A DNA stretch of 39,032 nucleotides from Candidatus Babeliales bacterium (lineage in GTDB: Bacteria > Babelota > Babeliae > Babelales > Vermiphilaceae). Positions 33,001-36,000 of the stretch are shown here, piece after piece. The stretch covers positions 1 through 39,032 of the forward strand of contig JBIOKB010000003.1 in NCBI GenBank assembly GCA_044451405.1. The letters are read 5' to 3'. Position numbers: made by a program. Position 1 is the stretch's first letter; each line of letters begins with the position of its first letter.

Positions 33001-36000
33001 TGGTAAAACATACAAATTCCTACCAATGGTTAATAATTATGATCTTCGTAAAGAATATGCAGATGCTTTGATTCAAGAAGCGCTTAAGAACCTAGAAAAT
33101 CAGATAACACATACATGTTCTCCTGAATGCTATGACAGTGAAGAATCGCCATGTCAACGAACTAATCCTTGGCATTATATAGATATAATTCTTGATGCTG
33201 GTGTAGGCACACGCAGGACAAGAAAAAAGAAAGAGAGGTCCCATGTCATATCATCAATGGGAACCAAAACCTCTGTTTGATGAAGACAATCCTGATCCGC
33301 GGCAGCTTGTATTAAAAGATACACAAATAATTGTTGAGCGTTTAACAGGTCCTGGAGATACAGTTGAAGTAGTTCAAGAAGAATATGTGCCATTTCTGCA
33401 AAAGATAAAAGCATACTATGCTGCTGATAATGATTGGCGTGATGGTATACCTCCTGCGATATTAAAGAAGTATGGTGGCATGTGGGTCAATATTGCAACC
33501 GGAAAATCCTATAATTTAGTGAGATAAAATGCATCCAATAGAAGAGCTATTTAAAGATATGGACAAATTAAAAGATCTGCTTTACTTTGTGGTATCTTTA
33601 CCAGAAAGAGATCTGCAAGATAAATTCACAAAGCGATTTGATGAGCAATGTATGGATTATATACTTCAGCTCGCATTAGAAGGTAACTATGAGCATGCGA
33701 ATAAAGTAGTATATTTGATGCAAAAGGTCTTTGAAAAGGTACCCGAAATTCTTGAACAGGTAACGAAAGAATACAATGAAGATAATAGAAGCGCTGAAGA
33801 AGATAAAAGAACTAAAGCGAAAAAGCGACGAACTAAAAGTAAAAGTACGTGAACATTGTGCTGGATTAGATTGCGATACCCCAACCTATGCAGATCAAAG
33901 AGGTCAAATTAAAGAATGGTTACAATCTAACCACGATATCGTTAAAGAAATTGGACATCTGCGTACTTCCATACAACGCACCAATCTCGATACAAAAGTT
34001 ACCATTGAATTGGGTGGAAAGTTTGTTACTAAGAGTATTTCTGAATGGATTGACCGTCGTCGCGAGCTTGCGAAGATGGAAGAAACAATTTGGTTGCAAC
34101 TTTATGATAAAGGACTAAAAGAAACCTACGAACATAAACTTACTCCACAAGCTCCCACCACAACAATTAAAAGAGTATTATACTTCGATCCTAAAGAACG
34201 AGATCAGAAAATAGAATTATATCGCTCAGAACCTGCGTTAATTGATTCTACGCTTGAAATTACTAATGCAGTAACTGAACTTAAAGAAGTTTAGACTACT
34301 TCCATAAACCCGGCGTTCGTCTTACAAGGGCCTACGCTGGGCTTCTTTGAAATGAACTTCAATTGGCATGCTTCGAGTATGTCTCCGTCAGCCCAGGCGG
34401 TAAAATTCCTGGGCTGTTAAAAAGATGTTTGTTGTCACTTGTGGCAATGCTATTGTGCAGGGGAATTTATTGATAATTATTTTGTCCCTGCACATAAAAT
34501 TACGCGGATGTTGTCTAGTAGGTAAGACGCCGGTATAAAAAAACCGGACAACGGTGGTTCGATCCCATCCGTCCGCTTGAAATAAAAACCTATTAGTAGC
34601 CCAATTTGCAGCGAAAGCGGCAGCTACTTTTAGTAGTTTGCACACCAGGTGTGCTGCCCTGGCTAATAGGTTCTTTGAAATTATCAGACTAACGTACAGA
34701 CATAAAAATTGGTAAAACGTAGAAGTTGCTGAACTCAAATCAGTATAATGCTATAGCTCAGAGGTAGAGCGTCAGGCTAATAACCTGAAAACGTAGGTTC
34801 GATTCCTATTAGCGTAATTGGCCTGCAAAGCCCGTTTCACGACGTAAACGTGTTATTAAAGTACGTAAGATTCATGGTTTAAGATCGTAAGTTTTAAAAA
34901 GCTTTAAGTATTAAGAATCAAGGATCAAGGATCATCCCTTCCTCTTGTAGGATAGGGAATGACCTATAAAAGTTATTTTGTCTTCGTTTTTAACCCACAC
35001 TTTGTAGGGTCCTATACGGGTAGTCTGTAAAAATATTGGTTAGTGTCGTATGATACTAATAATGTTCCCCACAAGTTGACACCATCCTCTTGTGGGGTTT
35101 TTGATAGCCTTAAACTCTGTATGCTTTAGCATATATAGTCCTTTTTTCCCCAGTGAGAACATTCTCATTGGGGTTTTTTATTGAATGCGAAAATTGAGGT
35201 TCATACAATCGCTTTGTAGTCAGTGAAGCGATGAAGATTCAAGACCTCCTATAAGTTAATAAGTCTCATGCGGCATTCCCTGACTACCCTTATTACTATT
35301 AAGGGAGAATGAATGCTATTTCCTCAACTTGGGCCACAGTACCTCGACGATAAAGATCGCGCTATTCTTGCGCGCATGGAATCTTTTTATGCAGAAAGTA
35401 TCACAATAAACCAATCTTTTTGGGGTGAAGCTGATACTGACACTCGTTTCTATACCGGTGATCAAACACTCTGGAATGATCTGTATGGTAACCTGCCTGC
35501 AAATCGACGTAGGCAATTTAGCTTTAATCGTATTATGCGTGTAGTGAATATGATTCATGGCCATCAGTGTCGGAATCGTAAATCCATAATTGCTACCGGT
35601 GTAGAAAATGCCGATGCAAAGACCGCAGATCAATTTACAAAAATAATTCTGAATATAAATCAGCAAGAAAATGTCCTTGAAACAATATCCACCGCTTTTC
35701 GTGGTGCATTAGTCACTGGCATGAATCTGCTCCAAATATGGGTAGATTATCGACAGGATCCTGTTTCAGGAAACATAAAAGTAGATTACCTACCATATAA
35801 CGCATTCCTCATAGACCCGTTTTTTACCAAGCACGACTTATCTGATTGCAATTCATTGTGGACACGCAAATTCCTCACTAAACGTGAATGCATCGCTTTA
35901 TTGTCTGAACATGTTGAAGAAATAATGGGACTATCTGGCAATGATTCTGGTAACGGTAGGGACGGAAAATTTCAATTTGCTCCCCAGAGCTACAATTACG

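What a model noticed while it worked through the whole genome (the two positions that open the first line are those of the whole stretch)
34504..34818. Two phage tRNA genes with A34, one with an eight-base anticodon loop
Between terminase and portal the phage carries tRNA genes with anticodon AAU (Ile) and with an 8-nt anticodon loop AUAAAAAA (AAA or AAAA, Phe-type). Both have A at the wobble position, which is rare in bacteria. If A34 is deaminated, the first could read AUA, a codon the phage uses more than the host.
Evidence so far: aragorn structures. Rfam tRNA 64.8 and 47.6 bits, cut-off 29. Ile ATA 36% in the phage against 23% in the host. TadA-type deaminase on C4:27705-28193.
(Added by a program. 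Inside this text positions count along the whole contig: contig position 1 is position 1 of the stretch shown here. "Call 12" and the like, gene names such as g00115 and contig names such as C1 are that model's own, and its searches are not shown. The text may have been shortened before it was handed on; [...] marks where a part breaks off. The agent that wrote the report below was given it as the finding of a first reader that could run no searches.)

Follow-up and report, generated by a model that had tools for sequence, protein, structure and literature searches.

The report
Two odd phage tRNA genes
A phage genome carries two well-formed tRNA genes whose first anticodon base is A, one of them with an extra base in its anticodon loop; such tRNAs are rare in cells but recur in other phages, and what they decode is still untested.

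Summary
ARAGORN and Rfam both call two tRNA genes at 34504-34577 (8-base anticodon loop AUAAAAAA) and 34747-34817 (anticodon AAU). They score 47.6 and 64.8 bits against a cut-off of 29, and both fold as cloverleaves. They lie in an ORF-free cassette between the terminase and portal genes of a ~38.5 kb phage contig.

Neither gene has a close relative. None was found in 80 portal-related viral loci, 261 genomes of the host's order, cultured phages or metagenome pattern scans.

The kind is not unique. A motif scan of viral contigs gave 33 tRNA(AAU) genes among 80 loci. A second scan gave 27 tRNA(AAA), 5 with 8-base N-U-AAAA-N-N loops and 11 with 6-base loops among 53 loci. The same C34-to-A allele of a CAU-type tRNA is kept, 77 of 77 bases identical, in cultured Skatevirus phages.

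The phage over-uses ATA (37% against 24% of Ile codons) but not ATT or TTT. The bin encodes TadA, TilS, MiaA and a CCA-adding enzyme. I found no sign of programmed +1 frameshifting at UUUU.

Best reading: real auxiliary phage tRNAs of a rare, recurrent A34 class. Inosine formation, charging, expression and the A7 count remain unproven. Decay is the main rival.

The parts
34504..34577 (+). tRNA1. Cloverleaf with an 8-base anticodon loop AUAAAAAA (34535-34542), anticodon AAA or AAAA (34537-34540) and an A7 run at 34537-34543. The acceptor starts G1-C72, C2-G71, G3-C70; the discriminator is U73; no CCA is encoded.
   Evidence: ARAGORN; Rfam 47.6 bits; the cloverleaf is the MFE fold at -26.0 kcal/mol, z -2.27; sequence read.
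34747..34817 (+). tRNA2. Cloverleaf with a 7-base loop CUAAUAA (34777-34783), anticodon AAU (34779-34781), an A1.A72 mismatch and discriminator A73; no CCA is encoded. ARAGORN's version is 34746-34818 with an 8-bp acceptor stem.
   Evidence: ARAGORN; Rfam 64.8 bits; MFE cloverleaf. The anticodon arm equals that of CAU tRNAs in L115 and L116 except at base 34.
34587..34672 (+). Spacer between the two tRNAs. It is predicted to form three hairpins closed by a stem of about 11 bp (a four-way junction). It is not a tRNA and not significant by shuffling.
   Evidence: Fold of 34578-34745, z -1.26; no Rfam match.
34819..35185 (+). ORF-free, strongly structured tail of the cassette. It ends in an intrinsic-terminator-like hairpin at 35148-35173 followed by a T run.
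   Evidence: Fold z -5.85, 0 of 100 shuffles as stable; terminator scan; no ORF of 30 aa or more with a family match.
35181..35209 (+). Promoter-like site (TTGAAT-17-TACAAT) ahead of the portal gene. Its first 26 bases are repeated at 2189-2214, ahead of the capsid gene.
   Evidence: repeat family D11.
31278..32648 (+). Terminase large subunit (context, upstream).
   Evidence: PHROG phrog_2, E 2e-28, and phrog_2472, E 7e-40.
35313..37370 (+). Portal protein (context, downstream).
   Evidence: PHROG phrog_156, E 6.5e-77.

Best explanation
Both are genuine phage-borne tRNA genes, members of a rare but recurrent class of phage tRNAs with A at the wobble position. They sit in a non-coding cassette after the packaging genes, closed by a terminator just before the portal promoter. 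Inferred: they are transcribed from the phage, cut out by host RNase P and finished by the host CCA-adding enzyme, since neither encodes CCA. tRNA2 looks like a CAU-type tRNA (Ile2/Met-like) in which C34 has become A. It keeps A35, U36, A37, A38 and A73, so it would most likely be charged with Ile. If A34 stays unmodified it reads AUU by a Watson-Crick A:U pair. It would reach AUA only if A34 is deaminated. tRNA1 is an AAA-anticodon tRNA of the A-U-AAA-A-A loop type seen in other viral contigs, with one extra A. It would pair with UUU. The 8-base loop probably weakens it or lets it slip +1 on UUUU now and then, but the phage shows no adaptation to quadruplet reading. Shown: the genes, their structure, their setting, the recurrence of the class and the conservation of the AAU allele elsewhere. 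Inferred: expression, charging, decoding and any benefit.
For: 1. Structure. Rfam gives 64.8 and 47.6 bits against a cut-off of 29. Both have unconstrained cloverleaf MFE folds. All stems are paired except 1:72 of tRNA2, and U8, A14, G18G19, the G15/C48 pair and the T-loop TTCGA are present (read).
2. Setting. There is no coding ORF on either strand in 34295-35312. A terminator lies at 35148-35173. In portal relatives, 18 of 80 loci carry a tRNA near the portal gene, 16 of them tRNA-Glu(UUC), so this neighbourhood is a usual place for phage tRNAs.
3. Origin of tRNA2. A 26-base pattern covering the D-stem 3' side and the anticodon arm, with N at position 34, hit 2 metagenome contigs. Both hits are CAU tRNAs.
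4. The class recurs. 33 of 80 loci from an AAU-loop plus T-arm scan are ARAGORN tRNA-Ile(AAU), 2 of them on giant-virus bins. Of 53 loci from a UAAAR-loop scan, 27 are tRNA(AAA), 5 have 8-base loops and 11 have 6-base loops. Four have the loop ATAAAAA, which is ours minus one A.
5. Selection on the same allele elsewhere. Cultured phages 6947, Skate, Seszw_1 and PJN025 carry a tRNA that is 77 of 77 bases identical, with AAU. Bas80, KFS-SE2 and 64795_sal3 carry CAU. The 3-kb flanks of 6947 and the Skate group are only 90-92% identical.
6. An 8-base-loop family (L354/L365) keeps its loop across a compensatory A27-U43 to G27-C43 change.
7. Host machinery. The bin encodes a CCA-adding-type enzyme, MiaA, TadA and TilS.
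8. Experiments in E. coli found all ANN tRNAs mature and active. Ile-tRNA(AAU) overexpression was neutral to beneficial (bioRxiv 10.64898/2026.05.15.725136, passages).
Against: Neither gene has a close relative: 0 of 80 portal-related loci; 1 weak hit among 50,697 cultured phage records; 0 exact hits for tRNA1 patterns in viral or metagenome contigs; only generic tRNA-length matches in 261 genomes of the host's order. Identity to the ANN tRNAs from the scans is at most 70-76%. So there is no conservation evidence for these two genes themselves.
Codon use does not call for AUU or UUU readers. ATT is 30.0 per mille in the phage against 41.0 in the bin, and TTT is 29.4 against 34.4. Only ATA is enriched, at 25.7 against 17.6.
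tRNA1 has U73 and a Gly/Thr-like acceptor top, not the A73 of bacterial tRNA-Phe (recalled identity rules), so its amino acid is unclear.
tRNA2 has a mismatched first pair and a weak A/U-rich acceptor stem.
The 6-base loops found beside the 8-base ones (11 of 53) suggest that A-run length drifts in such genes, as expected for decay.
No expression data exist.
The host assignment rests on binning only. Portal relatives sit in MAGs of six unrelated lineages, and the tetranucleotide correlation of C3 to the bin is 0.925 against 0.967-0.993 for the other contigs.
Confidence: 0.45

Rival explanations
1. Decaying genes. Both are former ordinary phage tRNAs, CAU-type and GAA-type, disabled by lesions in or near the anticodon (C34 to A, G34 to A plus a one-base A-run expansion, and a broken 1:72 pair). 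They persist as neutral remnants.
For: Both are orphans with no conserved relative. Each has two oddities at functionally critical places. The codons they would read best, ATT and TTT, are under-used by the phage. A-run loops of 6, 7 and 8 bases coexist among viral tRNA(AAA)-like genes. A syntenic tRNA-like gene in relative L031 is clearly degenerate, at 37 bits with a poorly paired anticodon arm. Two-fold-box ANN tRNAs are sporadic in bacteria: after a 70-bit filter only 5 of 132 ANN genes are from two-fold boxes (section 14 of bioRxiv 10.64898/2026.05.15.725136).
Against: Outside the anticodon loop and pair 1:72 every stem pair and every conserved tertiary base is intact, whereas decay should strike anywhere. 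Two adjacent genes both ending up with A at position 34 is an unlikely coincidence if ANN genes are well under 1% of tRNA genes (695 of 246,393). The identical C34-to-A allele is conserved in diverged cultured phages.
Confidence: 0.3
2. The inosine route. Host TadA deaminates A34. IAU then reads AUU, AUC and AUA and so supplies the ATA codons that the phage over-uses, without needing TilS.
For: ATA is 37% of Ile codons in the phage against 24% in the bin. tRNA2's arm is that of CAU tRNAs, the type that phages carry for AUA (the role of CAU/lysidine tRNAs is recalled). TadA is present in the bin. E. coli Phe-tRNA(AAA) appeared to be converted to IAA. The loop shares C32, U33, A37 and A38 with the natural TadA substrate loop as described.
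Against: In E. coli an AAU anticodon in a CU-AAU-AA loop showed no inosine and no AUA reading. Only 3 of 15 ANN variants were modified, and TadA was described as very specific (PMC11066159, passages). The bin's only other A34 tRNA is Arg(ACG), 1 of 32 tRNAs outside C3, so nothing suggests a broadened TadA. The phage encodes no deaminase among the 44 Pfam-scanned and 48 PHROG-scanned ORFs. I34 on tRNA1 would misread the Leu codon UUA, which is 35% of phage Leu codons.
Confidence: 0.15
3. Natural quadruplet decoder. tRNA1 reads UUUU as one step and shifts ribosomes +1, either at a programmed site or to disturb host translation.
For: The loop has the N-U-NNNN-N-N layout of known +1 suppressor tRNAs (recalled: sufD type). 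All five viral 8-base loops found read N-U-AAAA-N-N, and one family keeps its loop across a compensatory stem change. tRNAs of every isoacceptor class can be turned into quadruplet readers by simple changes (PMC9094753, passages).
Against: In-frame TTT followed by T is not avoided: 65 of 334 TTT codons (19.5%) in the phage against 22.4% of 9,215 in the bin. All 65 sites run into a stop in the +1 frame within 51 codons, median 6. The two +1 gene overlaps (30527-30651 and 33776-33852) hold no in-frame TTTT. The split capsid gene needs -1/+2, not +1, and is explained by an insertion.
Confidence: 0.07
4. Assembly miscount. The true run is A6, so tRNA1 has an ordinary 7-base loop AUAAAAA with anticodon AAA.
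For: Homopolymers are the commonest place for length errors. The 7-base loop ATAAAAA occurs in 4 viral tRNAs. The contig ends overlap at only 74-90% identity, so more than one strain was in the sample.
Against: The bin looks like an ordinary short-read assembly with intact genes: ORFs of 120 aa or more cover 810,687 of about 984,500 bases outside C3. Eight-base loops without long runs exist in other viral tRNAs, such as CTAAAACC and CTAAAACG. My homopolymer-junction test was uninformative.
Confidence: 0.12
5. Defence evasion or decoy. The changed anticodon loops make the tRNAs resistant to a host anticodon nuclease that cuts tRNA-Ile or tRNA-Phe, or they soak up such an enzyme.
For: Phage tRNAs are reported to escape tRNA-targeting defences through anticodon-loop mutations (PMC10264068, abstract start and two passages; PMC11555353, listing and abstract start only). 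Both oddities lie in the anticodon loop. Codon supply does not explain AUU or UUU readers.
Against: No nuclease aimed at tRNA-Ile or tRNA-Phe was identified, and I did not scan the bin for defence systems. In the reported cases the anticodon itself is kept, whereas here it is changed. The bin is a reduced genome of about 1 Mb.
Confidence: 0.08
6. tRNA2 is a derived initiator-type tRNA that starts translation at AUU.
For: The unpaired 1:72 position with A73 recalls bacterial initiator tRNA (recalled feature). Its anticodon arm equals that of L115's CAU tRNA, which has an A1.A72 mismatch on a GCGGGG/CCCCGC stem. One viral tRNA(AAU), L184, has the CGCGGGG...CCCCGCAACCA initiator acceptor.
Against: It has only 2 of the 3 G-C pairs in the anticodon stem, C11:G24 rather than A11:U24, and A2:U71 with U3.G70 rather than G2:C71 and C3:G70 (read; rules recalled). 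No phage gene needs an ATT start: upstream in-frame extensions are at most 20 codons, and the only ATT candidates with a Shine-Dalgarno match lie one codon before a normal start.
Confidence: 0.02

Closest known systems
tRNA(AAU) of cultured Skatevirus phages (Salmonella phage Skate MH321493.1, Seszw_1 MH791410.1, PJN025 OR921208.1, Escherichia phage 6947 ON637251.1)
   Same: It is a phage-borne, single tRNA gene with the loop CUAAUAA. It is the C34-to-A allele of a CAU-type tRNA, and it is annotated tRNA-Ile in Skate and 6947.
   Different: The sequence is unrelated to tRNA2 (alignment A1). It encodes CCA, has a fully paired acceptor stem, lies among tail genes on the opposite strand, and has no AAA-type neighbour.
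Eukaryotic and giant-virus tRNA-Ile(AAU), read as IAU after ADAT deamination
   Same: Same anticodon. Two of the 33 viral hits are on giant-virus bins (L161, L196).
   Different: That system depends on the heterodimeric ADAT enzyme (PMC8007984 passages). Here only a bacterial TadA is at hand, and the element is a tailed-phage genome.
+1 frameshift suppressor tRNAs with 8-base anticodon loops (sufD type, recalled) and engineered quadruplet tRNAs (PMC9094753)
   Same: An 8-base loop with U33 followed by four identical bases that could pair with a homopolymeric quadruplet.
   Different: Those arise as suppressors of a known frameshift or are engineered. Here no dependent +1 site and no avoidance of UUUU was found.
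Engineered A34 tRNAs in E. coli (bioRxiv 10.64898/2026.05.15.725136; PMC11066159)
   Same: AAU and AAA anticodons in bacterial cells. They are shown to mature and decode mainly U-ending codons, and Phe-AAA is possibly deaminated.
   Different: Those are laboratory constructs in native or M. jannaschii bodies with 7-base loops. Ours are natural, phage-borne and of unknown charging.
Phage tRNA-Ile2/Met-type CAU tRNAs that supply AUA (role recalled), for example the CAU allele in Bas80, KFS-SE2 and 64795_sal3
   Same: The anticodon arm of tRNA2 matches CAU tRNAs apart from position 34, and the phage over-uses ATA.
   Different: With A34 there is no C for TilS to turn into lysidine, so the usual route to AUA reading is closed.
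Phage tRNAs with anticodon-loop changes that evade anticodon nucleases (PMC10264068)
   Same: They are phage tRNAs whose differences from host tRNAs are concentrated in the anticodon loop.
   Different: In that model the anticodon is kept and the neighbouring loop bases change. Here the wobble base and the loop length change, and no nuclease is known.

Membership tests
tRNA (Rfam RF00005) | The cloverleaf with conserved core bases scores above the family threshold | tested here: met
   64.8 and 47.6 bits against 29; both are also called by ARAGORN; MFE cloverleaves.
tRNA (Rfam RF00005) | Seven-base anticodon loop with U33 | tested here: not met
   tRNA2 meets it (CUAAUAA). tRNA1 has U33 but 8 loop bases. 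The run length was not checked against reads.
Bacterial tRNA-Ile (IleRS substrate) | A35, U36, A37, A38, A73 and U12:A23 (E. coli identity set, recalled) | tested here: met
   All are present in tRNA2 (read from the alignment). C4:G69 and C29:G41 of the E. coli set are G4:C69 and A29:U41 here, and position 34 is A rather than G or lysidine. Charging itself was not tested.
tRNA-Ile2 (CAU, lysidine) | C34 as the substrate of TilS | tested here: not met
   Position 34 is A. TilS is present in the bin. The arm otherwise equals CAU tRNAs.
I34 tRNAs (TadA substrates) | A34 in a loop that the resident TadA accepts, and inosine in the mature tRNA | not testable with these tools
   A34 and a TadA gene are present. 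Published E. coli data disagree between AAU (not modified) and Phe-AAA (apparently modified).
Bacterial tRNA-Phe (PheRS substrate) | G34-A35-A36 with A73 and the E. coli core set (recalled) | tested here: not met
   tRNA1 has A35, A36 and U20. It also has A34, U73, G26, C27:G43 and C28:G42 (read). Its acceptor top G1-C72, C2-G71, G3-C70 with U73 is Gly/Thr-like (recalled rules).
+1 frameshift suppressor / quadruplet tRNA | Eight-base anticodon loop with a four-base anticodon | tested here: met
   Loop A-U-AAAA-A-A.
+1 frameshift suppressor / quadruplet tRNA | Genes that depend on, or a genome adapted to, the quadruplet reading | tested here: not met
   65 of 334 in-frame TTT codons are followed by T, with no depletion against the bin. 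All +1 continuations stop within 51 codons. There is no in-frame TTTT in the two +1 overlaps.
Bacterial initiator tRNA | Unpaired 1:72, three G-C pairs at 29-31:39-41, and A11:U24 (recalled) | tested here: not met
   Only the 1:72 mismatch is present. The stem has A29:U41 and the D stem has C11:G24. No ATT-start genes were found.
Phage auxiliary tRNA by codon compensation | The tRNA reads codons used more by the phage than by the host | tested here: inconclusive
   ATT and TTT are used less by the phage and ATA more. The feature is met only if A34 is deaminated. The host assignment rests on binning alone.

The most novel reading that the evidence does not exclude
Phages carry a so far undescribed, recurrent class of natural A34 tRNAs. 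It includes 8-base-loop N-U-AAAA-N-N tRNAs that read UUUU as one step. This phage pairs such a +1 shifter with a TilS-independent tRNA-Ile(AAU, possibly IAU). Together they would retune decoding of the A/U-rich Phe and Ile codons during infection, or derail host translation at U runs.
Probability: 0.1. Interest if true: 0.85.

Novelty: new variant of a known kind. Interest (0 to 1): 0.55.

Why it matters
tRNAs with unmodified A at the wobble position are nearly absent from cells, and the reason is still debated (abstract of bioRxiv 10.64898/2026.05.15.725136). A review states that phages avoid the same anticodons (PMC8007984, passage).

Here one phage carries two such genes side by side. Simple motif scans show that tRNA(AAU) and tRNA(AAA) genes, some with 8-base loops, recur in viral contigs. 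One AAU allele is conserved in cultured coliphages and Salmonella phages.

If these tRNAs work, phages are a natural testing ground for why A34 is avoided, for TilS-independent reading of Ile codons, and possibly for natural quadruplet decoding. If they do not work, they show how phage tRNA genes decay at the anticodon first. The Skatevirus pair (Bas80 with CAU, 6947 with AAU) makes the question directly testable in E. coli K-12.

Tried and rejected
1. Close relatives.
- Portal-based loci: 80 viral and 6 in genome contigs. Neither tRNA was found among the 80 viral loci. I did not scan the 6 genome loci for tRNAs.
- BLAST of 34400-34900 against cultured phages gave one 57-base hit to a tRNA-Lys.
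- Exact anticodon-arm patterns in viral contigs gave 17 and 12 stretches; 0 of 29 are tRNAs, so these are chance matches.
- T-arm patterns gave 1 unrelated tRNA-Arg(CCU) in a 17-tRNA array, and 0 hits.
- The tRNA1 pattern gave 0 hits in metagenomes.
- Forty-one relatives and 261 genomes of the order gave only generic tRNA matches.

2. Sequencing runs: none was listed, and no RNA holder was listed. The A7 run and expression therefore stayed unchecked, and read laying was not used.

4. Frameshift search: no programmed +1 site.

5. ATT-start search: nothing.

7. Homopolymer-junction test for assembly errors: uninformative, because A/T runs sit at normal gene borders.

8. BLAST of two viral tRNA(AAA/AAAA) genes (L351, L347) against cultured phages: no match.

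9. Rfam in E-value mode around the tRNAs and around the capsid insertion: nothing beyond the two tRNAs. Rfam at gathering thresholds on five relatives with capsid insertions: 0 hits.

10. Literature. Searches listed no paper on phage-encoded 8-base-loop or quadruplet tRNAs. This covers only those three searches of the held library. The main text of PMC6409571 gave no anticodon table, and I did not open its supplements.

11. Host taxonomy was not resolved.
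Full report
**What is there**

The window is the whole of contig C3 of a 1,023,543-base, 89-contig bin. 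Its ends repeat each other imperfectly: 256-486 against 38802-39032 at 90%, and 24-248 against 38579-38803 at 74%. This fits a circular or permuted phage genome of about 38.5 kb assembled from more than one strain.

PHROG matches give a terminase large subunit (31278-32648), a portal (35313-37370), a major head protein, tail and fibre proteins, Erf, RusA, two endonuclease VII paralogues and a replication initiator. Pfam adds an excisionase-type HTH, an SPFH protein and a Fic/DOC protein. It finds no deaminase or tRNA-modifying enzyme among 44 ORFs.

ARAGORN finds two tRNA genes in the window, 34504-34577 (anticodon written aaaa) and 34746-34818 (aat). Rfam at gathering thresholds finds the same two and nothing else, at 47.6 and 64.8 bits (cut-off 29; E 2.9e-07 and 5.1e-12).

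**Anatomy**

tRNA1 reads GCGGAUG / UU / GUCU-AGUAGGUAA-AGAC / G / CCGGU-AUAAAAAA-ACCGG / ACAAC / GGUGG-UUCGAUC-CCAUC / CGUCCGC / U. Every stem pair is standard. U8, A14, G18G19, the G15/C48 pair and the T loop are in place.

The only anomaly is the loop of eight, caused by a run of seven A (34537-34543). The last A closes the stem.

tRNA2 reads AAUGCUA / UA / GCUC-AGAGGUA-GAGC / G / UCAGG-CUAAUAA-CCUGA / AAAC / GUAGG-UUCGAUU-CCUAU / UAGCGUA / A. Its loop is normal apart from A34. The first acceptor pair is A.A. ARAGORN rescues it by drawing an eighth pair, U-1:A73.

Both give the cloverleaf as the unconstrained minimum-energy fold. Neither encodes CCA, whereas most of the bin's own tRNA genes do.

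**Setting**

Between 34295 and 35312 there is no credible ORF on either strand. The 116-aa antisense frame over tRNA1 has no PHROG match.

The stretch after tRNA2 is strongly structured (z -5.85). It ends in a terminator-like hairpin at 35148-35173, followed by a promoter-like site whose sequence recurs ahead of the capsid gene. The scan found no promoter-like site upstream of the tRNAs within 34200-35400. They are therefore probably read through from the packaging operon, which is an inference.

**Relatives of these two genes**

I found none.
- Among 80 viral loci with portals 51-77% identical, 18 carry a tRNA near the portal. ARAGORN of these tRNA-Glu(UUC) and leaves 2 unassigned. None is AAU or AAAA.
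- Cultured phages gave one 57-base match to a tRNA-Lys.
- Exact-arm patterns in viral contigs hit only non-tRNA DNA: 0 of 29 loci are tRNAs.
- tRNA1 patterns hit nothing in viral or metagenome contigs.
- Forty-one relatives and 261 genomes of the host's order gave only tRNA-length matches of 77-93%.

One result is informative. The tRNA2 arm with N at position 34 hit two metagenome contigs, and both hits are CAU tRNAs. tRNA2 therefore looks like a CAU-type tRNA with C34 changed to A.

**The kind recurs in viruses**

A scan of viral contigs for CTAATAA, 12-13 bases, then GGTTCRAWTCC gave 83 stretches. Of the 80 loci held, ARAGORN tRNA-Ile(AAU). They fall into several unrelated sequence families, and two are on giant-virus bins.

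One family is identical to a tRNA in cultured phages. BLAST found 148 records, 77 of them at 99% identity or more, though many are versions of one phage, seszw. I fetched seven records.
- 6947, Skate, Seszw_1 and PJN025 have AAU.
- Bas80, KFS-SE2 and 64795_sal3 have CAU.
- Bas80 and 6947 differ in the tRNA only at base 34 (alignment A1).
- The four AAU carriers are 77 of 77 bases identical, although the 3-kb flanks of 6947 and the Skate group are 90-92% identical.

By my own rough estimate, 77 neutral sites at 91% identity would stay unchanged with probability about 7e-4. The tRNA body is therefore under constraint in AAU carriers too. Skate and 6947 annotate it as tRNA-Ile.

A second scan (AGAGC, 7 bases, TAAAR, 13-15 bases, GGTTCRANNCC) gave 53 loci. 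ARAGORN tRNA(AAA), 11 with 6-base loops, 5 with 8-base loops and one 'taaa'.
- All five 8-base loops read N-U-AAAA-N-N.
- L354 and L365 are homologues that keep the 8-base loop across a compensatory A27-U43 to G27-C43 change.
- L347 and L366 (loop TTAAAAAA) have a sibling, L362, with TTAAAAA, all in phage contigs of 25-28% G+C.
- Four genes have ATAAAAA, which is our loop minus one A.

There are caveats. The scans find A34 by design. Six-base loops are about as common as 8-base ones, which speaks for drift in A-run length. Neither of our genes is closer than 70-76% to any of these.

**Codons and host machinery**

I used 59 phage ORFs and 813 ORFs from the rest of the bin as proxies. ATA is 37% against 24% of Ile codons, ATT 44% against 56%, and TTT 72% against 82% of Phe codons. 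Per thousand codons, ATT and TTT are lower in the phage and only ATA is higher (25.7 against 17.6). Codon compensation therefore argues for an AUA reader, not an AUU or UUU reader.

The bin has tRNA-Ile(GAU), three CAU tRNAs and tRNA-Phe(GAA). Arg(ACG) is its only A34 tRNA, 1 of 32 outside C3. It encodes TadA (100.9 bits, below NCBIfam's cut-off of 150), TilS, MiaA and a CCA-adding-type enzyme.

The host link itself is weak.
- Portal relatives lie in MAGs labelled Agriterribacter, Nitrososphaeria, Chlamydiia, Nitrosopumilaceae, Bathyarchaeia and Planctomycetia.
- C3's tetranucleotide profile correlates 0.925 with the bin, against 0.967-0.993 for the other large contigs.
- Codon use is broadly alike.

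**Quadruplet and other readings**

In-frame TTT followed by T is not depleted: 65 of 334 in the phage against 22.4% in the bin. Every +1 continuation stops within 51 codons. The two +1 gene overlaps hold no in-frame TTTT. No gene needs an ATT start. Programmed frameshifting and AUU initiation therefore have no support here.

**Literature**

- A review says A34 is universally missing in the Phe/Leu box and that phages lack the same anticodons as bacteria (PMC8007984, passages).
- In E. coli, M. jannaschii tRNAs with AAU or AAA read essentially only the U-ending codon, and TadA modified 3 of 15 ANN variants (PMC11066159, passages).
- A 2026 preprint found all ANN tRNAs functional in E. coli. Phe-AAA was apparently deaminated, and Ile-AAU was neutral to beneficial. 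GtRNAdb holds 695 non-ACG ANN genes among 246,393, or 132 after a stringent filter, only 5 of them from two-fold boxes (abstract, passages and section 14).
- Phage tRNAs that evade anticodon nucleases through loop changes are described in PMC10264068 (abstract start and two passages).
- aaRS identity rules, initiator features and the sufD comparison are recalled, not taken from a call.

**Verdict**

The genes are real and well formed, and their oddities are concentrated at the anticodon. Two neighbouring genes both having A34 is hard to put down to chance. The same allele is maintained in cultured phages. I therefore favour working auxiliary tRNAs of a rare A34 class (0.45) over decay (0.30). 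The inosine route to AUA is a live sub-hypothesis (0.15) and quadruplet reading a long shot (0.07). Expression, charging, modification and the A7 count are all untested.

Noticed in passing
window 2344-3671 (insertion about 2581-2960): The major head protein gene is split. In relatives L005, L007, L028, L032 and L035, residue 79 of the N part runs straight into residue 2 of the C part. The window therefore carries an insertion of about 380 bases with an 83-aa ORF (2665-2916) that has no family match. Other relatives have insertions of 200-1200 bases at other places in the same gene, with frame changes. Rfam finds no intron family in any of them.
   Followed up: partly
window 24-486 and 38579-39032: The contig ends repeat each other at only 74-90% identity. 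This suggests a circular or permuted genome assembled from two co-occurring strains.
   Followed up: no
window 34819-35185: An ORF-free stretch after tRNA2 folds far better than shuffles (z -5.85). It has two terminator-like hairpins, and weak sRNA-model hits are all below threshold. It could hold a small RNA.
   Followed up: partly
window 2189-2214 and 35181-35206: A 26-base motif starting TTGAATGCGAAAATTGAG is repeated ahead of the capsid and portal genes. It overlaps a sigma-70-like site and is a candidate late promoter.
   Followed up: no
window 22778-23161 and 23158-23718: Two adjacent endonuclease VII paralogues have starts that repeat each other (38 bases, 87%).
   Followed up: no
window 27890-30302: An accessory gene set: a GroES-like protein (27890-28150), an SPFH/Band 7 protein (28147-28959), DUF551 (29276-29464) and a Fic/DOC-family protein (29733-30302).
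   Followed up: no
window 19297-20014; C15:8104-8215; C2:3044-3144: Part of the tail-fibre gene is 74-76% identical to short stretches of two other contigs of the bin. This is the only sequence link between the phage contig and the putative host, apart from a 106-base match (72% identical) of 38372-38477 to C18.
   Followed up: no
L117-L122 (genome contigs): Portals 47-70% identical sit on contigs binned into MAGs of six unrelated bacterial and archaeal lineages. Phage contigs of this group are often mis-binned, and host calls from binning are unsafe.
   Followed up: no
L354/L365, L347/L366/L362, L374 (viral contigs): These are viral tRNA families with 8-base loops of the form N-U-AAAA-N-N. 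One family keeps the loop across a compensatory stem change. Another alternates between 8 and 7 bases among related AT-rich phages. Eleven further genes have 6-base loops.
   Followed up: partly
L329, L330, L393-L397 (cultured Skatevirus and Saltrevirus phages): A tRNA next to the tail-tube gene exists as a CAU allele (Bas80, KFS-SE2, 64795_sal3; annotated tRNA-Met where annotated) and an AAU allele (6947, Skate, Seszw_1, PJN025; annotated tRNA-Ile in two). The alleles differ at base 34 only between Bas80 and 6947.
   Followed up: yes
L115 (metagenome contig), 187-265 minus strand: ARAGORN calls a 79-base 'tRNA-Gly(ACC)' beside tRNA-Pro and a CAU tRNA with an A1.A72 mismatch. This may be another A34 tRNA, or it may be a miscall.
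   Followed up: no
L031:1752-1828: A relative has a degenerate tRNA-like gene (37 bits, poorly paired anticodon arm) about 800 bases upstream of its portal gene. Its D and T arms are close to those of tRNA2.
   Followed up: partly
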